A stretch of 31,581 nucleotides of DNA, from the UHGV virus genome UHGV-1546770. One strand, given 5' to 3'. The translations under genes were made by a program, and so were the position numbers. The notes beneath the pieces were generated by a model that saw nothing but the letters and a program-made list of their open reading frames with translations, did no database searches and was not told the origin of the DNA. This stretch comes from a virus. The stretch's first letter is position 1, and every line of letters begins with the position of its first letter. Positions 2-30,953 of this stretch are shown here, piece after piece.

Positions 2-86
2 TGGGACAGGGGGTCGGATTCGAACCGACGTGAGCAAAGCTGGCGGCTTACAAAACCGCTCCAATCGACCACTATGGGACTCCTGC
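2..86 (-). tRNA. tRNA-like gene, type-II-like body (13-nt variable arm), anticodon loop UUUGUAA (UGU), encoded CCA
   Basis: Hand fold of minus strand: acceptor GCAGGAG/CCCCTGT (6 of 7 pairs), D-arm CCA-TAGTGGTCGAT-TGG, anticodon stem GCGGT/GCCGC, T-arm GTCGG-TTCGAAT-CCGAC, discriminator C plus CCA. Confidence 0.5.
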
Positions 87-164
87 AGATCTCTGTGTCT
101 TTCCACAGCGCCAGCTATGCTTTGTTTGGTGGCGGCGCGCGACGTGCATAGCATCCACATTTTT

Positions 165-235
165 CTAACGCAACTTGAATCGAACAAGTATCTCCCTCTG
201 ATAGTGAGGGCGCTTTCCCATTAAGCTATACGATA
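165..235 (-). tRNA. degenerate tRNA-like gene, anticodon loop ACUAUCA (C at position 33)
   Basis: Hand fold: acceptor TATCGTA/TGCGTTA (one T-T mismatch), D-arm GCTT-AATGGGA-AAGC, anticodon stem CCCTC/GAGGG, perfect T-arm ACTTG-TTCGATT-CAAGT; no CCA. Confidence 0.35.
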
Positions 236-292
236 ATATAATTTTAAACACTGGCAGGGCGGCGTATCCTGCATCTCAGATTCCCTATAAGA

Positions 293-350
293 GGAGCGTC
301 GGGAGCCTTTCCGACCTCAGTGTTTCATTTATGTTTCAACAACCGCTGAT
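293..350 (-). pseudogene. tRNA pseudogene fragment related to the 2-86 tRNA-like gene
   Basis: Minus strand AGCGGTTGTTGAAA...GTCGG-AAAGGCTC-CCGAC resembles the anticodon and T-arm of the 2-86 gene (same GTCGG/CCGAC stem) but the T-loop is degenerate and no acceptor pairing is found. Confidence 0.25.
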
Positions 351-481
351 GATTAGTAGCGATAAGCATTTATGCTTTGCTTAAAGCAGTTTCTGAGGAA
401 TTATATGAAAAAAATGCATCAAGTCGCTAATTTATATGCCGCCACACGACAGGTCGGCAATCTTTGTTGTTGACTTTAATT

Positions 482-572
482 TGGTCCCCCCGGAATGGAT
501 CGAACATTCATATACCTTGTGAGGGCCTCTCCGTTATAAGCAGAGGGCTATAACCAATTTAGCTACGAGGGG
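482..572 (-). tRNA. tRNA-like gene with ~19-nt variable region, anticodon loop CUUAUAA (UAU), encoded CCA
   Basis: Hand fold: acceptor CCCCTCG/CGGGGGG (7 pairs incl. one G-U), D-arm GCTA-AATTGGTTA-TAGC, anticodon stem CTCTG/CGGAG, T-arm GAATG-TTCGATC-CATTC, discriminator A plus CCA. Confidence 0.5.
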
Positions 573-760
573 AGATATTAATTTGCCGTCTTTCCGAGCT
601 GTCACCGTTTCTGCCGATTTGTAGGGTTCGTTCGAACAGTTTAAGCAACTTATCCCTTGGTAATGATAGCAAGCGAGGCCGCGTATGACCCCTAACAGAC
701 TTAAAAGTTACTGGTTCTATCTTCACTCAAATCTGACATTGTACGCTACTCACTATCATT

Positions 761-843
761 TGGTGGGCAGGGTGGGTGTCGAGCCCACTACCCCGAAGGA
801 ACGGATTTACAGTCCGCCGCGTTTGCCGATTCGCTACCTGCCC
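761..843 (-). tRNA. tRNA-Tyr (anticodon GTA), type II, encoded CCA
   Basis: Hand fold: perfect 7-bp acceptor GGGCAGG/CCTGCCC, D-arm GCG-AATCGGCAAA-CGC, anticodon loop CUGUAAA, 12-nt variable arm with CC-TTCG-GG hairpin, T-arm GTGGG-CTCGACA-CCCAC (C at position 54). Confidence 0.7.
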
Positions 844-854
844 ATATTTATTTG

Positions 855-930
855 GTTGCTGAAGCTCTGGAATTGAACCAGATTAAAACGACTTATGAGG
901 CCGCTTGAGATACCTACCTCCCACCAGCAA
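855..930 (-). tRNA. tRNA-like gene with Met/Ile2-type anticodon loop CUCAUAA (CAT); acceptor stem imperfect
   Basis: Canonical core GCGGC-CUCAUAA-GTCGT, 5-nt variable loop, T-arm TCTGG-TTCAATT-CCAGA; no clean 7-bp acceptor pairing found by hand, so possibly a pseudogene or a misfold. Confidence 0.4.
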
Positions 931-983
931 TATGTTGCAACTTTAGTATTTTATATAGGTCGTACAGTTGCCACAAAGACCTG

Positions 984-1060
984 TGGTACGCCACCTCGAA
1001 TTCGAATCGAGACTTGATGCATTTTGAGTGCATTTCCTCTGCCAATTGGGATAGTGGCGC
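984..1060 (-). tRNA. tRNA with anticodon CAA (Leu by anticodon) but type-I body with 5-nt variable loop, encoded CCA
   Basis: Hand fold: acceptor GCGCCAC/GTGGCGT (7 pairs incl. G-U), anticodon arm ATGCA-CTCAAAA-TGCAT, T-arm CTCGA-TTCGAAT-TCGAG, discriminator A plus CCA. Confidence 0.6.
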
Positions 1061-1071
1061 ATATTAAAGAA

Positions 1072-1145
1072 TGAAAACGATAAGACTTGAACCAATGTCT
1101 TCCTCGTTCGTAGCGAGGCACTCTATACAACTGAGTGACGCTTGC
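1072..1145 (-). tRNA. tRNA-Arg (anticodon ACG), partly degenerate
   Basis: Anticodon arm CCTCG-CTACGAA-CGAGG matches the canonical Arg-ACG loop; D-arm ACTC-AGTTGTATA-GAGT; T-arm ATTGG-TTCAAGT-CTTAT (one mismatch); acceptor GCAAGCG/CGTTTTC (one mismatch); no CCA. Confidence 0.5.
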
Positions 1146-1203
1146 ATATTTGACTCTTAGGTCAGTCAGCCACACATTACTTAACGCATTCCATTTGTTC
1201 GCG

Positions 1204-1290
1204 TGGTGCAGGTGAAGGGCCACGATCCCTCAATCCCATCTGGGCGACAGATTTTAAGTCTGTTCTGTATTCCAATTCCAGCACACCTGC
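1204..1290 (-). tRNA. tRNA-Leu (anticodon TAA), type II, encoded CCA
   Basis: Hand fold: perfect acceptor GCAGGTG/CACCTGC, D-arm CTG-GAATTGGAATA-CAG, anticodon arm ACAGA-CTTAAAA-TCTGT, 15-nt variable arm, T-arm GAGGG-ATCGTGG-CCCTT, discriminator A plus CCA. Confidence 0.65.
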
Positions 1291-1771: not shown

Positions 1772-2428
1772 TTAATACTCGATATCAAGCACAGTTAGTG
1801 CGTTACTAACCGAAAGCGCCGCATCAACTTCAGTAATGAAACTAGAAATCTCATTGTCAAGCTGTTCAATGGCATCCTTGACACCAATAGGATCAATGAT
1901 GTCATAAGTGTTGTCCTTGATGTACTGAGCACGAAGATTCTTCATCGCTTCCGAATCAACAGCCATCTTAGAATCCTTCGGCTGTGCCTGAATGACACTA
2001 AGAACATAATTCTCTGCTCTCTTCTCAAGAGGATCACCACTGTTCTTATCAAGCTCATTCTTTGCTACAGCATACTGAGATTCAAGACACTTCTTAAATG
2101 TGTTCTTGAACTCCATCCCATGGTTCTTCATCTCAATTGCGGTAGCAACTGTGTATTCGTTGTCACCAACCTTAACCTTCGTTACTGCATTAGATGCAAC
2201 AACCGCCTTCTTGATTGCATTACGTCTTGCAATCAGATCAGACACCTTCTGGAAATCTGACTTCATGCTGTTCTTAAACTCATTAATGGTCACTCCATGA
2301 ATCTTCTCATTAGAATGCTTATTCGCAACTACAAACGTACCAGAACAAATCGCATTATTGATACGTGAATCAATAACCTTAAGTTCTGCAAGAGCCTTGT
2401 GGACTGTCATCTGTTCCTTCGTTGCCAT
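1772..2428 (-). CDS. hypothetical protein (218 aa)
   Basis: Intact minus-strand ORF; AAAAGGAG RBS before the ATG; last gene before the tRNA array; no recognisable motif. Confidence 0.6.
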   Translation of the reverse strand: MATKEQMTVHKALAELKVIDSRINNAICSGTFVVANKHSNEKIHGVTINEFKNSMKSDFQKVSDLIARRNAIKKAVVASNAVTKVKVGDNEYTVATAIEMKNHGMEFKNTFKKCLESQYAVAKNELDKNSGDPLEKRAENYVLSVIQAQPKDSKMAVDSEAMKNLRAQYIKDNTYDIIDPIGVKDAIEQLDNEISSFITEVDAALSVSNALTVLDIEY

Positions 2429-5965: not shown

Positions 5966-6235
5966 TCAAATCTTTCTCCCCAAACAATCAACTTCAACAA
6001 CATCATTGTCGAGCACATCTGTTTCATAAAGCATCTCTTCTAGCGCATGAAGCTCATCAAAATAATATGCAAGTTTCTTCTTTAGGTTTTCTATAGCTTC
6101 TTCTTTTGTTTCGCCATATCCATAAATATTTGTTAAGTCAAAATTATGATATCTATCAGCATCATTAAATAAATAACAAGTATGTGACTGAGACTTTTCC
6201 TTTCCATCATTATGATGTGCGATTTTCATTAACAT
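5966..6235 (-). CDS. hypothetical protein (89 aa; start trimmed from track ORF 5966-6298)
   Basis: Internal ATG at 6233-6235 preceded by AAAGGAG at about 6 nt; the longer track ORF would overlap 6210-6410 by 89 nt. Confidence 0.5.
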   Translation of the reverse strand: MLMKIAHHNDGKEKSQSHTCYLFNDADRYHNFDLTNIYGYGETKEEAIENLKKKLAYYFDELHALEEMLYETDVLDNDVVEVDCLGRKI

Positions 6236-6410
6236 AATTTGCTCCTTTCGGATCGTACATGTCACAAGCACCTGTGTCCTCATAACACAAATGCCCAACT
6301 ATAAAAGTCATCCCCATTTCTTTTTCTTTAGGAGTTGGATGTGGGATATCACAGCATAAATTCCAATCTCCACAACCAATATAATGCTTGCATGTCCCGC
6401 ATTTATCCAT
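6210..6410 (-). CDS. hypothetical zinc-ribbon protein (66 aa)
   Basis: CGTCKHYIGCGDWNLCC motif; downstream of promoter at 6535-6562. Confidence 0.45.
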   Translation of the reverse strand: MDKCGTCKHYIGCGDWNLCCDIPHPTPKEKEMGMTFIVGHLCYEDTGACDMYDPKGANYVNENRTS

Positions 6411-6534
6411 TTATCTTACGCCTCTTTCGTAAAAAATAGATACATATAAGCCAATCCTTATATTCATTTGACATTTGTTGATTGCTCCTTTATAAATTTG
6501 TTGCCTTAATGTACTATAATTTTATACTGTAGCC

Positions 6535-6562
6535 AGTATATCATATATCTGCTATTTGTCAA
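6535..6562 (-). promoter_or_regulatory. sigma70-type promoter (TTGACA-N16-TATACT)
   Basis: Minus strand TTGACA aatagcagatatatga TATACT in the 6411-6734 intergenic region. Confidence 0.4.
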
Positions 6563-6607
6563 TATGGCAAATTGTACAAAACTGTAGTTTATATTTTGCA
6601 ATTTTTA

Positions 6608-6643
6608 TATAAAAAAATAACTCCCACTATATAAGTGGGAGTT
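6608..6643 (-). terminator. putative intrinsic terminator
   Basis: Hairpin AACTCCCAC-tatataa-GTGGGAGTT followed on the minus strand by a T-run (complement of A7 at about 6611-6617); downstream of the helicase gene. Confidence 0.5.
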
Positions 6644-6734
6644 TATGTATAATTAAATCAATACATTGCTAAATATTATTTAATTAATACTATCAATCTT
6701 AAGACTATATCCAAGGATCTCACCTTTGTTGGCT

Positions 6735-8282
6735 TTACATTTTCTTCTTAAGTACACCAATTTCTTTCCAAACATTTCCGTCCATATCTACTTCAAAGCA
6801 GATCAAATCATTCTTAGAACCAACTCTGTTCTTTACAATTCTTAATCCAACATAATTTTTATCATATCTTAAATCATGTTCTATTGGCTCTCCCCAAGTA
6901 TCATCTTCACAGACATATACATATTTTTGCTTGTCGTCTGCTGTTAGGTGTTTCCACATTTGCATTTGGTCAGTAACATGCATCATTCTCTTTGAACTTG
7001 CGATCTCTTGAGAATTTAAGTTTTCAATGGGGATATCATGCGCTGAATCTGTAAGCTGGAAAGTACAAATACAATACATTTTTGTTTCATGAATCCACTC
7101 TGTAATTTTTGTAGCAGTTGCGGCTAACTTTGCAAAGTCTTCAAGTCCAGAACATTTAAGTGTATCATATGCTACACCATCACACTTGTAAATTGTATTG
7201 GCTTTTTTGATTTCCATTTCAAGCACTTCATCTTCATAGCAAGAGCCGATATTCTTAAACAAGAATTTGCCACTACTTTCAGATTCAACCCATTGCATAA
7301 TTCGTTGCACCTTACGATATTCAGAAGATGTTTCATAAATTCTCTTTTTATAAGACTCTTCATCTTCTGTATACACACCATTATCATCCATTTGTCTATA
7401 GATATACTTTCCGTTATCATCTTTATATGATCCGAGTGCAATTTCTCTTTCTGGTTTATAAATATCTTTAATTCCATGTAGCTCTTGAATCTCTGGAGAA
7501 TTAATGCATGTAACTAAGAAGTTCAATTTAATGCTCTCTGCTGACATTTCGTTTGCAAGCAATAGAATTTTTTGCTTTTGAACAAGGACTAGATACGCAA
7601 TAAGATAAACGAGATTTCTGCCCTTACCACTATTGCTCAAAGCTCCTGTCATCAAAACGTTTCCGGGAAGTAATCCTCTATAATACTTCTGAAGATATGG
7701 CCATGGCCCAGCAACACCCATAGATGGCATGCACAAGAATTGGTCAATACATGAAACTGCGTTCTCTGTAAGAACAACAGGTTCATCAATTGCTTGTACT
7801 TTATTAGCTACCTTGTCAATTCGACCACGAACAATTCTACAAATATCATCTGGCGTTAATGCATTGAAATTCTTAATTGCCAAGATTTTTGATACGTCAT
7901 ATCCAGTCTCATTAAAAGCCCTTAGTAATGAAAACTTTTTAAATATTGAAAGATAATTCTTAATATCATGAGGGTCACTCATTGCCATTAATTCTTTAAT
8001 TGTCTTATATCCACCATACTGTCTGTATTGTTTAAAACGCTCTTTAGACATGCTACAGAACGTATTAATTTTCAATTCAGTAAAATCTTCAGAATATGAA
8101 ACATAATAATCAGAAAATAACTGATAAAAAAACTCACATGCCTTGTCCGAAAAATCATATTTTGGGACAATTGAGGTTCCATATGTTAGATATAATGTTG
8201 GCTCTTTATAAAATGATCCAACTACCAGCATTTCGGACTGGCTATTAGTTAATTCAAGTTCCATATTTTCACTTCCTATCAA
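6735..8282 (-). CDS. DnaB-like replicative helicase family protein (515 aa), divergent P-loop
   Basis: P-loop-like GALSNSGKGR, and C-terminal LRIVKNRVGSKNDLICFEVD resembling the DnaB-family KxRxG motif; sits in a replication-type gene neighbourhood. Confidence 0.5.
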   Translation of the reverse strand: MIGSENMELELTNSQSEMLVVGSFYKEPTLYLTYGTSIVPKYDFSDKACEFFYQLFSDYYVSYSEDFTELKINTFCSMSKERFKQYRQYGGYKTIKELMAMSDPHDIKNYLSIFKKFSLLRAFNETGYDVSKILAIKNFNALTPDDICRIVRGRIDKVANKVQAIDEPVVLTENAVSCIDQFLCMPSMGVAGPWPYLQKYYRGLLPGNVLMTGALSNSGKGRNLVYLIAYLVLVQKQKILLLANEMSAESIKLNFLVTCINSPEIQELHGIKDIYKPEREIALGSYKDDNGKYIYRQMDDNGVYTEDEESYKKRIYETSSEYRKVQRIMQWVESESSGKFLFKNIGSCYEDEVLEMEIKKANTIYKCDGVAYDTLKCSGLEDFAKLAATATKITEWIHETKMYCICTFQLTDSAHDIPIENLNSQEIASSKRMMHVTDQMQMWKHLTADDKQKYVYVCEDDTWGEPIEHDLRYDKNYVGLRIVKNRVGSKNDLICFEVDMDGNVWKEIGVLKKKM

Positions 8283-8944
8283 ATTAAGTCTTCCAAAAGA
8301 TCGCTAATATCCCCTAATCCATCATTCTGTTCAACTGCTTTAATTTTGCTATAATCAATGTTTACACTCTTTTTAACGCGACTTTGTTCCTCTTTCTCTT
8401 CTGCTTCTTTCTTTGCTTTTTCCTTGGCTTTTGAATATTTTACATAATTACTCATTAAAATAGCAAGATCATAGTTAACTCTTACCTCTCCGTCAATCAT
8501 CTTGCCATGATGCTTGTTCCATGCATTTGTTTTGTCTAGTTCTTTCTGATAGTCCTTCCACATATCAAACAATGTTTCTAAGTCAATTGGCTTGCACCGT
8601 TTTCCATTATATTTTCCAGATTGAATGTCTGCAATCATTGACCAAAAACGACGACTTAATGCCCCAACATCATAATGTGCAATCAAATACTCATTGAATT
8701 CGTCTTGCACAAAACGATGCATTAATTTCTTTTTTGCTTCTAATTCTAGTTGATCTAAATTCTGTAAGGCATCTGAATAAATGGACGAGTACCTGTTGTT
8801 TTTTAGTACTCGCCCATTACACATTGTTTTAAAACATTCAGTATGATAGCTTTTCTGTTTGTAAGAAACCATATGCATATCATTTTTTGTCAAAACAATA
8901 TCTTCCCCACAGAACGCGCATTTTCTAATTAAAGTGGCGCTCAT
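8279..8944 (-). CDS. hypothetical zinc-ribbon protein (221 aa), possible replication accessory factor
   Basis: N-terminal CAFCGED...HTEC ribbon; K/E-rich C-terminus; 4-nt overlap with the helicase gene start suggests coupling. Confidence 0.5.
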   Translation of the reverse strand: MSATLIRKCAFCGEDIVLTKNDMHMVSYKQKSYHTECFKTMCNGRVLKNNRYSSIYSDALQNLDQLELEAKKKLMHRFVQDEFNEYLIAHYDVGALSRRFWSMIADIQSGKYNGKRCKPIDLETLFDMWKDYQKELDKTNAWNKHHGKMIDGEVRVNYDLAILMSNYVKYSKAKEKAKKEAEEKEEQSRVKKSVNIDYSKIKAVEQNDGLGDISDLLEDLI

Positions 8945-8956
8945 TGTTATGTCTCC

Positions 8957-10033
8957 TTACTGTGAAACTACTTCAAGAATCTGGTTTAGAATAGCAATAT
9001 CTGTAACCTTGGCGAACTGGTCTGGAAGTCCTGCTTCCTTTATGGCAGCACGTTTGGCTTTCTTGTCTTCAGGAGAAAGAGATGACAGAACTCCCTTAAT
9101 TTCTGCCTTAAGGTTCTTGCATTCTTCGTCTTTTCTAATTTCCACATCCAACTCGTCTGTTTCCATTAGATCCTCTTTATGTGAATTATAATAGTCTTCC
9201 TTTTCTTTTTTCTCCTGCTTTGATTTGCTCTCAATATATTCGTCTGTTGCGTCATGAGACTTAATAGAGTTCTTAATTGCATCCTTGACAGTATCAATAT
9301 AATTCTTTGCAGAAACTTCTACTCTGTCAGCAATATCTTCAAATCTACCACCTGCATCAATATATCCATTTCCACGAAAGTACATCCATCTGCTAACACC
9401 ATCTACATGCCCATCAGTAATTTCTCTTTCAATAACACCCATCATACAAATATCTGCCTTGTTAGCAAAAATCGAATCATAATCTGTTGAAAGATTAGAT
9501 GTAAGCATCTGGTATTCATCGCCATTTTTCTCTTTAATATCCTTAATCTTAGTGTGCCCAATAAACACTAGACAGTACCCACTAGATTCTAGTCTGGTAA
9601 TAACGGAATTAATTAGCTCATCCACTTTTCTACGCCCAGCTCCATAACCTCCAAAACACGCATTAAATTCATGCTTGGTGCCAGACTTCTTATAGTCAAG
9701 ACGCACAATTTCCTTTTGAGCCATAGAAATCCATTCGTCAACGGTATCAAATGCAATAATAGAAAACGAATTTTCGTCCTTATTTTCTACTAGTTCGTCA
9801 ACGACTTCCATTAGTGTAGCCCAATCTGGGCAATCAGCAACCATTAGATTGTCAATAGCAAGATAACCTCTCTCATTTCCACAGCTAATCAATAGGCCAT
9901 GACTCATGTCGCCATATAGTTCTTTAATTAAATTTGCAAACAATGTAGTTTTGCCCCATTTTTTTGGTGCTCTCCAATAGTGGCGATAGTTAGTAATATC
10001 TACTGTTACCTCATTTTTCTTCCATAAAGCCAT
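8957..10033 (-). CDS. P-loop ATPase, RecA-like (Sak4/AAA_24-like)
   Basis: Walker A APKKWGKTT, Walker B-like SIIAFDTVDEW, and LVFIGHTK motif; K/E-rich C-terminal extension. Confidence 0.5.
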   Translation of the reverse strand: MALWKKNEVTVDITNYRHYWRAPKKWGKTTLFANLIKELYGDMSHGLLISCGNERGYLAIDNLMVADCPDWATLMEVVDELVENKDENSFSIIAFDTVDEWISMAQKEIVRLDYKKSGTKHEFNACFGGYGAGRRKVDELINSVITRLESSGYCLVFIGHTKIKDIKEKNGDEYQMLTSNLSTDYDSIFANKADICMMGVIEREITDGHVDGVSRWMYFRGNGYIDAGGRFEDIADRVEVSAKNYIDTVKDAIKNSIKSHDATDEYIESKSKQEKKEKEDYYNSHKEDLMETDELDVEIRKDEECKNLKAEIKGVLSSLSPEDKKAKRAAIKEAGLPDQFAKVTDIAILNQILEVVSQ

Positions 10034-10040
10034 AATAATA

Positions 10041-11051
10041 TCAGTCTCCTTTACCTTTTAAACTATTTATATATCTATCTAACTCTTCTTGTGTGATATA
10101 TCCTTTTTCAATTGCATCTTCCGCATACAACCAATGCAATGCCTCGCCTGTTTGTGGATGTTTATACGTATAATTTTGTTTACCTCTACAGCACTTTGTA
10201 ATAGAGCTTGGATCACATCCATATAAATTTTGTACTTCTTTTGCTCCCCAAAAAATTTGATTTAATTCTATACAATATATTCTTCTACATTTCCACCAAT
10301 TACTACCTTTACGAGAATCACTCATCTTTTTCTTTGCTTCTTCTGTGTGATGTTTCCCATACATTGGATGATTGCTTGGATTTATAAATCTTTCTTTTGC
10401 TTTTTCTGATAGATTTAATTTTTGTTCATCTGACAATTTTTTACCTAAACTGGGATGTTGTTTTCCTATCCATATATGTTTGCCTTTAGTTGTTGGATTT
10501 GCCCAATATAATTTATGTTTTTCATACCATTGTTTATATGTTTCTTCATCCATGCGTTCTTTTGGAGAAACTTTAAACTGTGGATTATTCTCGCCTACTA
10601 ATCCTGCTCTTCCATACATTGGATGATTATTTGGATCTGAAAGTCTTTCTTTTGCAGCTTTTGATATCTTTTTTCTTGTTTCTTTACTTGGAGTCCATCC
10701 TTGCGTTGTTCCTCCACCATAAACAAGATTATACCAATTGTTAGATTCAACAGCATTAAAGAAAACACTATAATTATATTCCATTTCATTTAATTCTTCT
10801 GCAGAATAAGCAATATCAATTACATTTCTTACAAAATTTTCTTTTCCATATTTGTCAATTGCTTGTTTAAATGCTGCACCACTACCAAGATATTCTTGCC
10901 AATTTCCATAGAATTTTCTTTGGCCTAAATATCTTTTGCCATCAATCAAATTCGTTGTGATATAAATAAATCCATATGGATCTTTTACTTCCGTATATGT
11001 TGTATCTTGTAGCCCATCAACGGAAGAATTCATTTCTTTTAATTCTTCCAT
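10041..11051 (-). CDS. GIY-YIG homing endonuclease with NUMOD3 repeats and NUMOD1-like HTH
   Basis: N-terminal YGFIYITTNLIDGKRYLGQ (GIY-YIG), repeated NHPMYG...K..S motifs, C-terminal ELNQIFWGAKEVQNLYGCDPSSITKCCRGK helix-turn-helix. Confidence 0.7.
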   Translation of the reverse strand: MEELKEMNSSVDGLQDTTYTEVKDPYGFIYITTNLIDGKRYLGQRKFYGNWQEYLGSGAAFKQAIDKYGKENFVRNVIDIAYSAEELNEMEYNYSVFFNAVESNNWYNLVYGGGTTQGWTPSKETRKKISKAAKERLSDPNNHPMYGRAGLVGENNPQFKVSPKERMDEETYKQWYEKHKLYWANPTTKGKHIWIGKQHPSLGKKLSDEQKLNLSEKAKERFINPSNHPMYGKHHTEEAKKKMSDSRKGSNWWKCRRIYCIELNQIFWGAKEVQNLYGCDPSSITKCCRGKQNYTYKHPQTGEALHWLYAEDAIEKGYITQEELDRYINSLKGKGD

Positions 11052-11124
11052 CTATTATCACTTCGCTGTCTATAATTTAGTATTGTCTAGGGAAGCTTTA
11101 ATTCTTCCCTAGACTTATGGATTC

Positions 11125-12201
11125 TTACCATGGCTCATCTTCGTCGTCAGATTCATCGTCGCCCCAATCATCATCCACATTGGATGTTGACTCTGCCTTA
11201 CCAGTGAAATCCTGTTCTGCTTTCTTTGATGCATTTACCTTCTTAATTGCCTCATCAATTGCCTTTTCAGTATATGTTTCTTTGTCAATAGTTGATGGCT
11301 TTGCACCTGTAATAATAAGTTCTCGATGAGTCGGTGCAAAAACTCTCTTATTGTCCATATCATTAGATTCGCCCCAGCAATCATCGTCTTCCTCATCATT
11401 CACGTCTTCAACATTATTAACAACATTGATGTGTCCATGAACCTGAATGGAATTATAAGGCTTTAGCCCACTACGCATCTGCTTTGCGAGTTTTGCATCT
11501 TCAATAATAAATTCAGCAGACTCAATAGAGTTATAATTCACAATCTTTGCATCTACCACAAATCGACCAGTTGGCTTGTCGTTTTCTCTTTCCTGATCAA
11601 TACCAACAAAAACAATTGTCTGCGTAAAATCATGAGCGGGAGCATAATCCTCCGCCTCAAAGTCAACATCATTCTGACATAGAGAAATTTGTGTTGGGAC
11701 AAACTTTGTGGTACGAGAGACTTCCCCATCTTTGTTAGTATAACTGCCAAATTCTAGATTTCCTTTAACAAAAACAGAATCACCATCCTGAAGATTCTCG
11801 CTAATGTATTCACATGCGTCATACTCAGTAAGCGTCTTGTTGTCGTTTCTTACCTTTCCGTTTTCGTCCTTGATCTTCTGAAGTCCAGTAAGCACACCAA
11901 TCATACGATAGCCTTCAGGAGCCTTCTTAATTCTGTCTTTCCATGCAATTGCCTTTGTATCAGTATTGCCAGTGTCTTTATCCTTCTTACTAAAATACAC
12001 CTTGTCACGCGGCATACCATTAAGCGTTGGGAAAATTGTCTTCTTGTCATCATACTCCACGCCAAAATTAATCATTCTGAACTCTTTGCCAGTTCTTGTC
12101 TGCTTTTCTACGTAGAAACTATCCTTTTCTACTCCGCTTACAATTCCTCTAACCTGAAAAGTTCCCTTGGTTTGTGGAAGTTCAAAAAGTTTGTTTGCCA
12201 T
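11125..12201 (-). CDS. putative ssDNA-binding protein (358 aa) with acidic C-terminal tail
   Basis: C-terminus DDDWGDDESDDEDEPW (acidic tail ending in an aromatic residue, as in SSB/gp2.5-type proteins); lies in the replication module. Confidence 0.4.
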   Translation of the reverse strand: MANKLFELPQTKGTFQVRGIVSGVEKDSFYVEKQTRTGKEFRMINFGVEYDDKKTIFPTLNGMPRDKVYFSKKDKDTGNTDTKAIAWKDRIKKAPEGYRMIGVLTGLQKIKDENGKVRNDNKTLTEYDACEYISENLQDGDSVFVKGNLEFGSYTNKDGEVSRTTKFVPTQISLCQNDVDFEAEDYAPAHDFTQTIVFVGIDQERENDKPTGRFVVDAKIVNYNSIESAEFIIEDAKLAKQMRSGLKPYNSIQVHGHINVVNNVEDVNDEEDDDCWGESNDMDNKRVFAPTHRELIITGAKPSTIDKETYTEKAIDEAIKKVNASKKAEQDFTGKAESTSNVDDDWGDDESDDEDEPW

Positions 12202-12253
12202 ATTTTATTAGTCTCCTTTTCCTATAATTTTGTATTGTTTAATAAAATAAAAA

Positions 12254-12463
12254 TTAATACTTATAATATCTTTCATCCATGACCGCATTATAATATGTGT
12301 ATTTGTCTAAAATGTCTTTCCCTATGTTCAACATATAATTTTCGTGCTCACAGCATGGACATCTCGCTTGTATATATAAATACTCAATGTAATTATTTTG
12401 TTCATCAACCTGAAAAATTGTTCCACATTTCTGGCATTGAACATTGACGCTCTTTGATTTCAT
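12254..12463 (-). CDS. hypothetical zinc-ribbon protein (69 aa)
   Basis: CQKCG...CPCCEHEN motifs; downstream of two consensus promoters. Confidence 0.5.
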   Translation of the reverse strand: MKSKSVNVQCQKCGTIFQVDEQNNYIEYLYIQARCPCCEHENYMLNIGKDILDKYTYYNAVMDERYYKY

Positions 12464-12532
12464 TCATCATTCATCCCCCTTTCTCAACAATTGAAAAGAC
12501 TATAATTTTATATTACATCTCATTACGATTGC

Positions 12533-12561
12533 ATTATACCATAACAATTGCGTCTTGTCAA
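12533..12561 (-). promoter_or_regulatory. sigma70-type promoter, exact consensus TTGACA-N17-TATAAT
   Basis: Minus strand TTGACA agacgcaattgttatgg TATAAT. Confidence 0.6.
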
Positions 12562-12735
12562 GTTTTTTATCGAAGATCGAAAAATTTTGTATTTCACTTT
12601 TACTTTATATTAATTCGCTGCTGATTATTGCGCAATTTCCATTTAACTCGATATTCGCAATTCCATTGTTCTTTTATTTTTTGTACCAATCATAACGTAT
12701 TGTGATTCTTACATTATAAATTTTTCGCTTATTTT

Positions 12736-12764
12736 ATTATACAGTACAAAATTATCATTGTCAA
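12736..12764 (-). promoter_or_regulatory. sigma70-type promoter, exact consensus TTGACA-N17-TATAAT
   Basis: Minus strand TTGACA atgataattttgtactg TATAAT, immediately downstream of the recombinase stop codon. Confidence 0.6.
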
Positions 12765-12770
12765 ATCTTA

Positions 12771-13745
12771 TTAAACCATATCATCCAAAATATTCGCGGC
12801 TTGCTGCTTTTTGTCTTTAGACATATTTGCATATCTCATAGTAGTAGCAATATTTTTATGATTAAGAACTGACGCACAAAGATAAATATCTCCAGTCTTT
12901 TCGTACAAATTAGTTGCACAAGAATGTCTCAACACATGTGGTGTAACATGCTTACTTGTCACATCCTTACTATATTTTTCTAGCATCACCCTAATGCCGT
13001 CTCTTGTAATTCTCTTTTTAAAGCTAGAAATAAACAAGGCATCTGTATTCGCCATGCTAAAATATTTGTTTCTATCCTGTAGCCACAATTCTAGCTGCTT
13101 CTTTACTCTATCGCCAAATAGAATATTACATGTTTTTCCTCTTTTTTCGATTACCTTAATAGTATTATTTTCGAAATCAATATCACCAATATCAATTTGC
13201 GTGATTGCAGATACACGCAACCCAGTAGTTAGTCCAAGCATAATAATGGCTAGATCCCTATTTTTCATCTTTTTGCTTGCAAGCTTATCAACATTTTCAA
13301 GAATCATTTGCATTTCTTTTTCTGTTAAATAAGCAACATCTGGTGTATCTTGCACTTTAGGACGTTCTGTTCTCTCCATTGGATTTTCTTTAATATAATC
13401 ATTTTCTTTAAGGAACCCAAAAAACGTATTCAATGCAGACCACTTTGTCGCACGAATACTATCACTTGTATTATAATGTCCATTGATAGTTTCTTTATTC
13501 TTCAATGCGGCAAAATATTTATTAATATCCAAAGGTGTTACCTTTTTATAAAAATCATTTGAGATTCTATTTTCATTAATAAATTCTGCAAATTCCTTCA
13601 CATATGCTACATATCTCTCAACTGTTGTATAAGATTTAGTTATACACATATAATAATAAAATTCAGAAAAAATTTTAGGAAGTCCTGTTAATTTTGCCTG
13701 CATCTTATTTGTAGCAACAATTTCCTTTTCCATTCTTCCTGTCAT
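12771..13745 (-). CDS. tyrosine recombinase / integrase (XerC/XerD-like)
   Basis: Catalytic-domain motifs TGLRVSA (Arg), HVLRHSCAT (His-x-x-Arg-His) and TMRYANM (Tyr) in the expected order. Confidence 0.85.
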   Translation of the reverse strand: MTGRMEKEIVATNKMQAKLTGLPKIFSEFYYYMCITKSYTTVERYVAYVKEFAEFINENRISNDFYKKVTPLDINKYFAALKNKETINGHYNTSDSIRATKWSALNTFFGFLKENDYIKENPMERTERPKVQDTPDVAYLTEKEMQMILENVDKLASKKMKNRDLAIIMLGLTTGLRVSAITQIDIGDIDFENNTIKVIEKRGKTCNILFGDRVKKQLELWLQDRNKYFSMANTDALFISSFKKRITRDGIRVMLEKYSKDVTSKHVTPHVLRHSCATNLYEKTGDIYLCASVLNHKNIATTMRYANMSKDKKQQAANILDDMV

Positions 13746-29956: not shown

Positions 29957-30240
29957 TACCTCGCTATTACATATTTTTCAAAGGGAAATTTTGCTCTATC
30001 ATCACACATGATGGTATAAGCGTTGATGCCTTTCAGATAAGGTTCTCTTTCTTTGACATCATCCCAATGGATGGTTTCCGTTCCGCCAAAAGCAAAAGCA
30101 AGTTCTGCCATAGGTTTATATCCATCTTTAAGATAGATATGAACCGCAATTATAGCACCATGTGTCATAGGATTATAGATTTCTCTTGTAGCGTTACAGT
30201 CCGTAAGGAACTGTTTCGCTTGGGCTTCATACTCAGTCAT
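29956..30240 (-). CDS. hypothetical protein (94 aa)
   Basis: Intact ORF in series. Confidence 0.5.
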   Translation of the reverse strand: MTEYEAQAKQFLTDCNATREIYNPMTHGAIIAVHIYLKDGYKPMAELAFAFGGTETIHWDDVKEREPYLKGINAYTIMCDDRAKFPFEKYVIAR

Positions 30241-30489
30241 TTATAATACCTCCATTTCCCTTAATACCGCTTTTGCGGCAGTAGTGATGTGGTCATCGTG
30301 ACAGTTGTATTTATCAAACCAGTCACAAACAGTTTCGATTGGGATAGTTGCACGAATGCAGTCCCATGCAAGTCTTGTGCCGAAGTCTTTGTAGTTGCCA
30401 GTTGCCTTGAGCTTTTCAGCATACTCAGGCAAGTTAGTGATCTTGCTGAAGCTTTCCCTTATGAAAGGGATTTCGTTTTTGAGTTTCAT
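30241..30489 (-). CDS. hypothetical protein (82 aa)
   Basis: AAGGAGGG RBS; immediately downstream of palindromic repeat copy 1. Confidence 0.5.
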   Translation of the reverse strand: MKLKNEIPFIRESFSKITNLPEYAEKLKATGNYKDFGTRLAWDCIRATIPIETVCDWFDKYNCHDDHITTAAKAVLREMEVL

Positions 30490-30496
30490 TTATTTC

Positions 30497-30575
30497 CCTC
30501 CTTTGTCATTTTGGCAAAGCCCTTAATGATACCCACGATAGATTCTAATCGTGGGCATGATAAAGGTTTCGCTTA
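30497..30575. repeat. palindrome-containing repeat element, copy 1
   Basis: gcaaagccc-taat-at ACCCACGAT n8 ATCGTGGGCAT ...aggtttcg; shares conserved flanks and an 8-9 bp inverted repeat with copy 2. Confidence 0.5.
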
Positions 30576-30770
30576 TTCAGTTCTCCATTCACCAACGAGA
30601 TTTCCGTTGCTATCAAAGAGGAATCCATTGCGATATCCGCATGTGATTTTGGCAGGGATTGTGCGCAAGATTTTTTCCAGTTCATTTGCGAGTGCATAGT
30701 TGTCCATGAATGCATCTTTGCTTTCGCTTTTGAATGCATCATTGCTGGTGTAGATTTTTACTTCAAACAT
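30573..30770 (-). CDS. hypothetical protein (65 aa)
   Basis: Protein-like composition; preferred over overlapping ORF 30545-30742. Confidence 0.45.
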   Translation of the reverse strand: MFEVKIYTSNDAFKSESKDAFMDNYALANELEKILRTIPAKITCGYRNGFLFDSNGNLVGEWRTE

Positions 30771-30773
30771 TAT

Positions 30774-30953
30774 TTACTTTCCCTTCTTTTCCATTTCTAC
30801 TGCAATATATGACATTGCAATTGCGTTGGACAGTGAAATGATGATACCGAGAACTGCGAAGAATGGAGTGATTGTTGCGCATCTCCATGCAAGCACCAAT
30901 GTCAGAGATACGGCGGCACTCAGTGCAGCCATGCAAATGCAGATATTTTTCAT
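30774..30953 (-). CDS. small membrane protein (~59 aa; start trimmed from track ORF 30774-30995)
   Basis: Internal ATG preceded by AAAAGGAGAAGGCAAA; two hydrophobic segments. Confidence 0.45.
   Translation of the reverse strand: MKNICICMAALSAAVSLTLVLAWRCATITPFFAVLGIIISLSNAIAMSYIAVEMEKKGK

What the first reader, a model, noticed from the sequence alone, without database searches (positions are those of the whole stretch)
11125..12201. Double-length SSB-like protein with an acidic tail ending in Trp
The 358-aa protein ends DDDWGDDESDDEDEPW. An acidic tail with a terminal aromatic residue is the partner-recruitment feature of bacterial SSB and T7 gp2.5-type proteins, but this protein is about twice the usual size and the OB-fold could not be confirmed by eye.
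Basis: partly seen in the sequence, partly recalled or inferred. Interest (0 to 1): 0.4.

Follow-up and report, generated by a model that had tools for sequence, protein, structure and literature searches.

The report
Phage two-OB-fold SSB (YorF family)
This gene most likely encodes the single-stranded-DNA-binding protein of a large phage of gut Clostridia; it is double-length because it is predicted to carry two DNA-binding (OB) folds in one chain, as Deinococcus/Thermus SSBs do, and it ends in the acidic, aromatic-tipped tail that SSBs use to recruit partner enzymes, so the function is ordinary and the architecture less common.

The parts
11125..12201 (-). Complete CDS, 358 aa plus stop: YorF-family tandem-OB SSB-like protein
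   Evidence: ORF list. phrog_2367 full length, 6.9e-44. The identical protein P0001 carries precomputed PF27337, which is named YorF. AF2 model pLDDT 90.8, pTM 0.85.
11680..12165 (-). OB fold 1 (aa 13-174), enlarged by extra beta-hairpins at about aa 74-125; holds conserved W87, R90 and Y154
   Evidence: DSSP strands and the helix at 126-136. Conservation: W87 99% aromatic, R90 94% basic, Y154 93% aromatic. Y154 aligns with E. coli SSB W88 and B. subtilis SsbA Y82.
11686..11817 (-). The only stretch recognisable as SSB by sequence (aa 129-172: helix, beta4, beta5 of OB1)
   Evidence: Pfam PF00436 at 22 bits, E 1.7e-4, below the 26-bit cut-off. phrog_44 SSB at 7e-5. Family profile against PDB: 30 of 31 hits are SSBs and all fall on this stretch. 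59 of 137 family members hit PF00436 at E<0.01.
11284..11631 (-). OB fold 2 (aa 191-306), topology b1-b2-b3-helix-b4-b5; no sequence similarity to OB1 or to known SSBs
11329..11418 (-). Flexible acidic loop inside OB2 (aa 262-291, net charge -9) carrying the near-invariant D274-x-W276-G277 motif; function unexplained
   Evidence: pLDDT 67-75. D274 83%, W276 93% and G277 97% identical across 137 sequences, and family mean net charge -5.1. 106 of 126 representatives have an acidic [WF]G motif here.
11206..11268 (-). Alpha-helix after OB2 (aa 312-332), preceded by near-invariant Y310
   Evidence: DSSP helix H312-332 with pLDDT above 90. Y310 is 94% identical and 99% aromatic.
11128..11196 (-). 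Disordered acidic C-terminal tail (aa 336-358) with a D-D-D-W-G motif (343-347) and the tip D-E-D-E-P-W
   Evidence: pLDDT below 50 at 339-358. 12 D/E and no K/R. Tip consensus D-[DE]-[DE]-x-P-[WF] in 119 of 126 representatives. Cultured-phage homologues end DDDLPW, EEDDLPF and DDSDLPF, and SPbeta YorF ends ISDDDLPF.
12213..12217 (-). Shine-Dalgarno sequence AGGAG, 11 nt before the ATG
   Evidence: Sequence read directly.
12533..12561 (-). Perfect-consensus sigma-70 promoter (TTGACA-17-TATAAT, with extended -10 TG) upstream of the small Zn-ribbon ORF and the SSB-like gene
   Evidence: Promoter scan, 12 of 12 matches; no terminator-like site in 10900-12800. A consensus match only.
12254..12463 (-). 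69-aa CxxC...CxxC zinc-ribbon-like ORF directly upstream, conserved in the sister contig
   Evidence: ORF list. Weak HypA/DUF6510 zinc-ribbon matches. 94% identical in L008.
10041..11051 (-). GIY-YIG/NUMOD3 homing endonuclease inserted between the SSB-like and ATPase genes; specific to this lineage
   Evidence: Pfam SegE_GIY-YIG and NUMOD3, plus phrog_314. Present in L008-L010. No match in E3, Kirov, 949 or SPbeta; in L012-L015 there is no match and no room for it.
8957..10033 (-). AAA_24 / Sak4-like P-loop ATPase (YorG counterpart), the predicted main client of the SSB tail
   Evidence: Pfam AAA_24 at 5.4e-22. phrog_124 Sak4-like at 8.7e-24. BLASTP to SPbeta YorG, which RefSeq names 'Sak4-like ssDNA annealing protein', at 3e-4.
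8279..8944 (-). YorH-like 221-aa protein of unknown function, syntenic in all relatives
   Evidence: Precomputed PF26927 Phage_SPbeta_YorH (weak) on the 96%-identical protein in the sister contigs. tblastn synteny.
6735..8282 (-). DnaB-like replicative helicase (YorI counterpart)
   Evidence: phrog_19 at 9.4e-30. NCBIfam phage_DnaB, sub-threshold. BLASTP to SPbeta YorI at 5e-12.
12771..13745 (-). XerC/D-like tyrosine recombinase upstream of the module; the same position holds in Bacillus phage Kirov, and Tyroviruses have a XerC-like gp175 three genes from their SSB gp172
   Evidence: Pfam Phage_integrase at 5.7e-35. Kirov_177. Tyrovirus gp172 and gp175 (PMC9703825).

Best explanation
The gene encodes the phage's own single-stranded-DNA-binding protein, built as a tandem of two OB folds in one polypeptide and belonging to the YorF family (Pfam PF27337). 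Predicted from the model: two OB folds packed against each other the way two subunits pack in a bacterial SSB dimer, then a helix, then a disordered acidic tail. Shown from sequence: the tail ends in a conserved tip of the bacterial SSB type (D-[DE]-[DE]-x-P-[WF]). Inferred: (1) OB1, which keeps SSB-like sequence and aromatic and basic residues (W87, R90, Y154), binds ssDNA; OB2 may add to binding or serve mainly in assembly. (2) Two chains dimerise to give the four-OB unit that all bacterial SSBs use, as Deinococcus/Thermus SSBs do, leaving two tails per particle instead of four. (3) On ssDNA the exposed tip recruits the module's enzymes. The first candidate is the adjacent Sak4-like AAA_24 ATPase, for strand annealing and recombination-dependent replication. 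The DnaB-like helicase, and the primase, RecJ-like exonuclease and Pol III alpha that relatives encode, may also be recruited, as may host SSB-interactome proteins. The gene appears to be co-transcribed with the Zn-ribbon ORF, homing endonuclease, ATPase, YorH-like and helicase genes from strong consensus promoters.
Against: There is no experimental evidence for any family member that I could find; a 'YorF' search returned nothing relevant. The window protein misses Pfam's SSB gathering score (22 against 26 bits), and NCBIfam gives no hit. OB2 shows no sequence similarity to SSBs or to OB1, its core is slightly acidic on average, and it carries a strongly acidic loop, so it may not bind DNA. 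Dimerisation was not tested. 52 of 126 representatives have 1-3 residues after the aromatic, which departs from the strictly terminal Phe that canonical tip pockets read. The E3 scan would miss non-canonical SSBs of the gp32, gp2.5 or phi29 p5 types. The structure is a prediction.
Confidence: 0.78

Rival explanations
1. It is a recombination-only accessory protein. In this reading it is the dedicated ssDNA-coating partner or mediator of the Sak4-like annealase, while replication forks use the host SSB.
For: The gene sits beside the AAA_24/Sak4-like gene in every relative examined. In HK620 the phage SSB acts chiefly to stimulate Sak4 annealing (PMC5928155). The SPbeta YorF tail copies the host SsbA tip, so the host SSB could equally serve the phage enzymes.
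Against: The module also contains the replicative helicase and, in relatives, primase and Pol III alpha. E3, with an almost complete replisome, has no other bacterial-type SSB. The two roles are not mutually exclusive, so this is a narrowing of the main explanation more than a true alternative.
Confidence: 0.1
2. It is a host-interactome hijacker or decoy. In this reading the OB scaffold mainly presents SSB-tip mimics (the tail tip plus the acidic W-G motifs), and these sequester or redirect host SSB-binding enzymes (RecJ, RecQ, PriA, exonucleases). ssDNA coating would be secondary.
For: The SPbeta YorF tail matches its host's SsbA tip at 9 of 11 positions. There are three conserved acidic-aromatic motifs: the internal D-x-W-G, the tail W-G and the tip. 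An unrelated phage two-OB SSB-like protein with an FDDDIPF tip, Bas52_0087, is proposed to interfere with host ExoI (bioRxiv 10.64898/2026.04.29.721553).
Against: OB1 keeps SSB-like sequence and the residue equivalent to the W88 stacking position. The window's subfamily ends in E-P-W, not the D-L-P-F typical of Gram-positive SSBs, which argues against simple host mimicry here. The conserved placement is in a replication module.
Confidence: 0.06
3. It is a T7 gp2.5-type SSB/annealase, meaning a single protein that both coats and anneals ssDNA.
For: It has an acidic tail ending in an aromatic residue, as gp2.5 does (established knowledge), and it is phage-encoded.
Confidence: 0.03
4. It is not a nucleic-acid-binding protein. 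In this reading the OB-like barrels serve another role (oligosaccharide or protein binding) and the tail is merely low-complexity acidic sequence.
Against: The top structural matches are specifically SSBs, with both domains in the SSB arrangement. The tail is a position-specific conserved motif, not just a composition bias. The replication-module synteny is conserved from Bacillus to Clostridia phages.
Confidence: 0.03

Closest known systems
Two-OB-fold dimeric SSBs of the Deinococcus-Thermus group (D. radiodurans 1se8/3udg; T. aquaticus 2fxq/2ihe; T. thermophilus 2cwa)
   Different: Sequence identity is only 9-12%. In the phage protein OB2 is not recognisable as SSB by sequence, and OB1 carries an insertion of about 50 residues. 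The Gly/Pro-rich linker is replaced by an alpha-helix plus a short acidic linker of about 25 aa. An extra acidic D-x-W-G loop sits in OB2. The tip ends in Trp. The protein is phage-encoded in Bacillota, so the duplication is probably independent; that was not tested phylogenetically.
SPbeta prophage protein YorF (Bacillus subtilis), founder of Pfam PF27337
   Same: It is in the same Pfam family (precomputed for the identical protein), and hhalign gives probability 95.8% over OB1 beta4 through OB2 and the helix. The gene order is the same: yorF, yorG (Sak4-like), yorH, yorI (helicase). Both have an acidic tail with a P-aromatic tip.
   Different: YorF is shorter (304 aa), is too distant for tblastn, has F-G where this protein has the internal W-G, and has a tip (ISDDDLPF) that copies its host's SsbA. 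RefSeq annotates it as hypothetical, and I found no functional study.
Canonical homotetrameric bacterial and phage SSBs (E. coli SSB, B. subtilis SsbA, HK620 SSB; Pfam PF00436)
   Same: They share the SSB-type OB fold. Sequence similarity covers helix-beta4-beta5, including the W88/Y82-equivalent aromatic residue. Both have an acidic tip of the form D-D-D-[IL]-P-F. Both are genetically paired with a Sak4-type annealase, as in HK620.
   Different: Canonical SSBs have one OB per chain and four tails per tetramer. The window protein scores below the PF00436 gathering threshold. The linker is of a different type.
Bas52_0087 of Escherichia phage RudolfGeigy (Vequintavirus), the trigger of the DRT10 defence system (bioRxiv 10.64898/2026.04.29.721553)
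   Same: It is a phage protein of about 400 aa predicted to have two OB folds, a disordered C-terminus and an SSB C-tip (FDDDIPF). It therefore has the same predicted architecture and the same kind of tail.
   Different: There is no detectable homology (hhalign probability 0.2%). It has a long Gln-rich inter-domain linker, a Gram-negative host and a different gene neighbourhood.
T7 gp2.5
   Same: It is a phage ssDNA-binding protein with an acidic tail ending in an aromatic residue that recruits the polymerase and helicase.
   Different: It has a single OB of a distinct subtype, and no structural or sequence match was found here. gp2.5 itself anneals DNA, whereas this module encodes a separate annealase candidate.

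Membership tests
Pfam PF27337 YorF | Match to the family model | tested here: met
   The model is not in the local Pfam copy. However, the identical sequence P0001 and all 120 listed homologues carry a precomputed PF27337 hit, and that family is named YorF.
Pfam PF27337 YorF | Homology to the founder, SPbeta YorF | tested here: met
   hhalign of family alignment A1 against YorF: probability 95.8%, E 6.9e-9, 158 columns.
Pfam PF27337 YorF | SPbeta-type gene neighbourhood (Sak4-like YorG, YorH, helicase YorI) | tested here: met
   A homing endonuclease is inserted between the first two genes in this lineage only.
Bacterial-type SSB (Pfam PF00436) | Score at or above the Pfam gathering threshold | tested here: not met
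   22 bits against a cut-off of 26, covering only aa 129-172. 59 of 137 family members reach E<0.01.
Bacterial-type SSB (Pfam PF00436) | SSB-type OB fold | tested here: met
Bacterial-type SSB (Pfam PF00436) | Acidic C-terminal tip D-D-D-[IL]-P-F after a disordered linker | tested here: met
   A variant form, D-E-D-E-P-W, is present here. The family consensus is D-[DE]-[DE]-x-P-[WF], and many members end in the exact DDDLPF or DDDIPF. The tail is disordered in the model.
Bacterial-type SSB (Pfam PF00436) | Sequence-independent, high-affinity ssDNA binding | not testable with these tools
   This needs EMSA or fluorescence titration with purified protein.
Deinococcus-Thermus-type two-OB SSB | Two OB folds per polypeptide in the SSB dimer-like arrangement | tested here: met
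Deinococcus-Thermus-type two-OB SSB | Both OB folds recognisable as SSB by sequence (recent tandem duplication of ssb) | tested here: not met
   Only OB1 matches SSB profiles. OB1 against OB2 by hhalign gives probability 4.6%.
Deinococcus-Thermus-type two-OB SSB | Homodimer giving four OB folds | not testable with these tools
   Only single-chain prediction was available. This needs AF-Multimer, SEC-MALS or crystallography.
Deinococcus-Thermus-type two-OB SSB | Gly/Pro-rich disordered linker before the tip | tested here: not met
   Here the linker is a helix at 312-332 plus an acidic stretch of about 25 aa with no Gly/Pro-rich region.
T7 gp2.5-type SSB | gp2.5-like fold or sequence | tested here: not met
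Sak4 and cognate-SSB recombination pair | ssb gene next to a Sak4-like (RecA-core, AAA_24) gene | tested here: met
   AAA_24 and phrog_124 Sak4-like at 8957-10033, separated only by a lineage-specific homing endonuclease; the two genes are adjacent in relatives.
Sak4 and cognate-SSB recombination pair | Annealing stimulated by the SSB in a tail-dependent way | not testable with these tools
   Shown only for HK620 (PMC5928155). It needs an annealing or recombineering assay with wild-type and tail-deleted protein.

The most novel reading that the evidence does not exclude
The YorF family would be an independently evolved tandem-OB SSB in which the second OB fold no longer binds DNA. In this reading OB2 has become a display platform. 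Its near-invariant flexible acidic D-x-W-G loop, the second W-G motif in the tail and the P-W tip would form a three-motif hub. That hub would either self-occupy the OB1 DNA groove (autoinhibition released by ssDNA) or dock different phage partners (the Sak4-like ATPase, YorH, the helicase). The mosaic replacement of OB1 between near-identical phages would then reflect an arms race with bacterial defence systems that sense phage SSBs.
Probability: 0.15. Interest if true: 0.6.

Novelty: new member of a known kind. Interest (0 to 1): 0.35.

Why it matters
The result assigns a concrete, testable function and architecture to a widespread family that PHROGs labels 'unknown function' and RefSeq leaves as 'hypothetical' even in the model prophage SPβ. 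The family has 461 clusters at 50% identity and more than 1,100 clusters at 90% identity. It also shows that the two-OB-per-chain SSB design, best known from Deinococcus-Thermus bacteria, is common in large temperate siphoviruses of Bacillota, including phages of gut Lachnospiraceae and Clostridia. There are two practical angles. In phage HK620 the cognate SSB strongly stimulates Sak4 recombineering, so such cognate pairs are candidates for recombineering tools, and this module offers a pair from hosts that may lack them. Phage SSBs are also known triggers or targets of several anti-phage defence systems, so recognising this family as an SSB helps interpret escape mutants. The biology itself, a phage carrying its own SSB, is ordinary.

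Tried and rejected
1. The + strand reading of the given coordinates is full of stops; the gene is on the minus strand.
2. T7 gp2.5 kinship is rejected: there is no structural or sequence match.
3. An internal sequence repeat, which would indicate a recent duplication, was not found. hhalign of OB1 against OB2 gives probability 4.6%, and only the topologically equivalent helix-beta4 segment aligns.
4. Homology to the published two-OB phage protein Bas52_0087 was not found (hhalign probability 0.2%).
5. Single-sequence hhalign to E. coli SSB and B. subtilis SsbA gave low probabilities (16% and 1%). I used these only to map Y154 onto W88/Y82.
6. NCBIfam gave no hit. The exact-sequence cluster look-up gave no source name.
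7. A near-identity DNA search of 25 kb of the window against GenBank phages found nothing.
8. The AFDB50 fold library was unavailable.
9. The genome search with the large alignment failed because no stretch was conserved enough. The single protein found no relative. A 14-sequence alignment then found 4 Clostridia/Lachnospiraceae loci.
10. Literature searches for 'PF27337', 'YorF', and 'yorG/yorI/SPbeta' gave nothing relevant. The R. gnavus phage paper was a spurious match on an author's name.
11. PDB chains of B. subtilis SsbA are truncated at residue 116, so they could not confirm the tail. I confirmed it from papers instead.
12. I considered a homodimer prediction using a concatenated sequence.

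Full report
OBSERVATION. The window holds a 358-codon ORF at 11125-12201, on the minus strand; the + strand frame at those coordinates is full of stops. It starts with ATG at 12201, 11 nt after an AGGAG Shine-Dalgarno sequence. It ends ...NVDDDWGDDESDDEDEPW*, exactly as reported. The last 23 residues contain 12 D/E and no K/R. The whole window is AT-rich (about 31-41% GC) and is coded almost entirely on the minus strand.

WHAT IT IS: SEQUENCE. Pfam gives only a sub-threshold SSB match (PF00436, 22 bits against a cut-off of 26) covering aa 129-172. PHROGs gives a full-length match to phrog_2367, 'unknown function' (6.9e-44), and a weak one to the SSB phrog_44. The word-indexed search found 1,136 clusters at 90% identity, all listed ones carrying a precomputed Pfam hit PF27337. 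The exhaustive search found 461 clusters at 50% identity, nearly all 320-380 aa long and matching end to end. The gene-context tool names PF27337 'YorF' and names the downstream 221-aa protein's family 'Phage_SPbeta_YorH'. I fetched SPβ itself. YorF (304 aa, 'hypothetical protein' in RefSeq) aligns to the family profile with hhalign probability 95.8% (E 6.9e-9). It lies in the order yorF, yorG ('Sak4-like ssDNA annealing protein'), yorH, yorI (replicative helicase), yorJ, yorK (RecJ-like exonuclease), yorL (DNA polymerase). A profile built from 137 diverse family members (alignment A1) hits 31 PDB sequences at E<=1. Thirty of them are SSBs, the best being the two-OB SSB of D. radiodurans (1.6e-5). 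Every match falls on profile positions about 103-177, which correspond to the helix-beta4-beta5 half of an SSB OB fold. 59 of 137 members individually hit PF00436 at E<0.01.

THE TAIL IS A MOTIF. Among 126 full-length representatives, 119 have F or W within the last four residues, and 67 have it at the very end. Anchored on that aromatic residue, positions -5 to -3 are acidic in 72-82% of sequences, and position -1 is Pro in 40%. Many members end in the exact bacterial tips DDDLPF or DDDIPF. Cultured-phage homologues end DDDLPW (E3 gp104), EEDDLPF (Kirov_173) and DDSDLPF (949 ORF57). SPβ YorF ends KPVEISDDDLPF, almost the same as its host's SSB tail PIDISDDDLPF (PMC4103019; PMC5531588). In OB1, Y154 (aromatic in 93% of members) aligns with E. 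coli SSB W88 and B. subtilis SsbA Y82, and PMC5531588 lists these among the ssDNA-stacking residues. W87 and R90, in an OB1 insertion, are 99% aromatic and 94% basic respectively.

CONTEXT. Reading downstream on the minus strand, the window encodes the following genes:
- a XerC/D-like tyrosine recombinase (12771-13745);
- a 69-aa Zn-ribbon-like ORF (12254-12463);
- the SSB-like gene;
- a GIY-YIG/NUMOD3 homing endonuclease (10041-11051);
- an AAA_24 / Sak4-like ATPase (8957-10033);
- a YorH-like protein (8279-8944);
- a DnaB-like helicase (6735-8282).
The same order, without the endonuclease, is seen in Geobacillus virus E3, Bacillus phage Kirov, Lactococcus phage 949 and SPβ, and in four loci in Lachnospiraceae/Clostridia genomes whose SSB-like proteins are 45-49% identical to this one. 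In the four Clostridia loci, the slot between the SSB-like and YorH-like genes has room for a single ATPase-sized gene. Two perfect-consensus sigma-70 promoters lie upstream on the same strand, and no terminator-like site separates the genes. E3 encodes Pol III alpha, a beta clamp, helicase, primase, ligase and gyrase. A maximum-sensitivity phmmer scan of all its ORFs of 60 aa or more with E. coli and B. subtilis SSB finds no canonical SSB (all E>4), and gp104 is the only hit to the family profile. About 20 GenBank records of Tsamsa/Thrax-like Bacillus phages already label the homologue 'single-stranded DNA-binding protein'. The Tyrovirus paper lists it (gp172) among core replication genes on the basis of CDD annotation. 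That paper also groups these phages with the 949-like, Sundance, SPβ-like and E3 phages (PMC9703825).

HOW IT MOST LIKELY WORKS. The evidence supports a tandem-OB fold (from a predicted structure), an SSB-type tip motif and replication-module synteny (both read from sequence). The following steps are inferred. OB1, and perhaps OB2, binds ssDNA. Two chains dimerise to form the four-OB unit common to all bacterial SSBs, as described for Thermus and Deinococcus (PMC1761420). On ssDNA, the tip recruits partners. The strongest partner candidate is the neighbouring Sak4-like ATPase. In phage HK620 the ssb gene sits next to sak4, and the last six residues of the SSB are required for Sak4 to load on SSB-coated ssDNA and for stimulated annealing and recombineering (PMC5928155). 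The helicase, and the primase, RecJ-like exonuclease and polymerase that relatives encode, are further candidates, as are host SSB-interactome proteins.

RIVALS. I weigh four rivals in the report sections: a recombination-only role, a host-interactome decoy role, gp2.5-type kinship, and a non-nucleic-acid OB. The first is a narrowing of the main explanation more than an alternative. The last two are poorly supported.

COMPARISON AND NOVELTY. The protein works like a Deinococcus-Thermus two-OB SSB, but it is not a member of that lineage: OB2 is unrecognisable by sequence, the linker differs, and the hosts are Bacillota phages. It is a member of Pfam YorF. A 2026 preprint predicts a similar two-OB plus C-tip architecture for an unrelated Vequintavirus protein, Bas52_0087, which triggers the DRT10 defence system. 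I found no homology to it. I found no biochemical study of any YorF-family protein. The finding is thus a new member of a known kind, and I found no published description of the family's two-OB architecture.

UNEXPLAINED OR NOTICED.
1. The most conserved motif in the C-terminal half is not the tip. It is D274-x-W276-G277, in the flexible acidic loop of OB2, and a second D-D-W-G sits in the tail.
2. Against a sister contig, the integrase-to-helicase region is 91-100% identical per 100-nt window apart from one indel, but a 400-nt patch covering OB1 (11756-12155) is only 66-82% identical. This is a mosaic allele swap.
3. The homing endonuclease and an MrpR-like recombinase gene are presence/absence variants next to the gene.
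4. The window starts with a tRNA array that also contains a skipping-rope RNA.

LIMITS. The structure is a prediction. ssDNA binding, oligomeric state and tail partners are untested. The E3 'only SSB' test would miss non-canonical SSB types. The AFDB library was unavailable, and I did not attempt a multimer prediction.

Noticed in passing
window 11756-12155 (minus strand; aa ~16-149 of the SSB-like protein): A mosaic patch. This 400-nt stretch, which encodes most of OB1, is only 66-82% identical to sister contig L008, while the surrounding region from integrase to helicase is 91-100% identical per 100-nt window apart from one indel. The protein is 87% identical, against 96-99% for its neighbours. 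Another homologue (P0073) combines the L008-type patch with a different N-terminus. This suggests recombinational allele swapping of the DNA-binding domain.
   Followed up: partly
window 11329-11418 (aa 262-291) and 11161-11175 (aa 343-347): A flexible, strongly acidic loop inside OB2 carries a near-invariant D-x-W-G motif (W276 93% and G277 97% identical across the family). That is better conserved than the C-terminal tip, and a second D-D-D-W-G echoes it in the tail. SPbeta YorF has F-G at the loop position. I have no explanation for its function.
   Followed up: partly
window 10041-11051 (minus strand): A free-standing GIY-YIG/NUMOD3 homing endonuclease gene is wedged between the SSB-like and Sak4-like ATPase genes. 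It is present in the near-identical contigs L008-L010. It gives no match in E3, Kirov, 949 or SPbeta, and in the four Clostridia genome loci there is neither a match nor room for it.
   Followed up: partly
window ~12716 (between integrase 12771-13745 and the Zn-ribbon ORF 12254-12463); L008 8290-9210: The sister contigs carry an extra insertion of about 1.2 kb encoding an MrpR-like recombinase (PF22822/PF22823). The window lacks it.
   Followed up: no
window 2-1290 (minus strand): ARAGORN finds an array of 7 tRNA genes (Thr, Ile, two Tyr, Met, two Leu). One is a 91-nt 'tRNA-Tyr' with the unusual anticodon ATA at 482-572. Rfam finds a further tRNA at 1072-1145 that ARAGORN did not list.
   Followed up: no
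window 246-325 (minus strand): A strong Rfam match to the skipping-rope RNA (RF02924; 77.9 bits against a gathering score of 36.7; full-length model) lies inside the tRNA array.
   Followed up: no
window 12736-12764 and 12533-12561 (minus strand): Two perfect 12-of-12 sigma-70 consensus promoters (TTGACA-17-TATAAT, the second with an extended -10 TG) lie upstream of the Zn-ribbon ORF and the SSB-like gene. The total number of promoter-like sites in the region is not above the shuffled expectation.
   Followed up: no
L011 (SPbeta NC_001884) 30032-30946: SPbeta YorF ends KPVEISDDDLPF, nearly identical to the C-terminal tail of its host's SsbA (PIDISDDDLPF). The window's own subfamily instead ends in [DE]-P-W. 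This hints that tips are tuned to different partner sets.
   Followed up: partly
window 1772-2428 (minus strand): A 218-aa ORF matches phrog_1491, 'tail fiber protein' (1.1e-53), although it lies among small early-type ORFs next to the tRNA array and far from any other structural gene seen in the window. The PHROG label may be unreliable.
   Followed up: no
L012 (Lachnospiraceae bacterium 54-53, scaffold of 555 kb), match at 6001-7053: A 49%-identical family member, with the same YorH-like and helicase neighbours, lies inside a 555-kb bacterial scaffold. This is consistent with an integrated prophage and with Lachnospiraceae/Clostridia as hosts of this phage group.
   Followed up: partly
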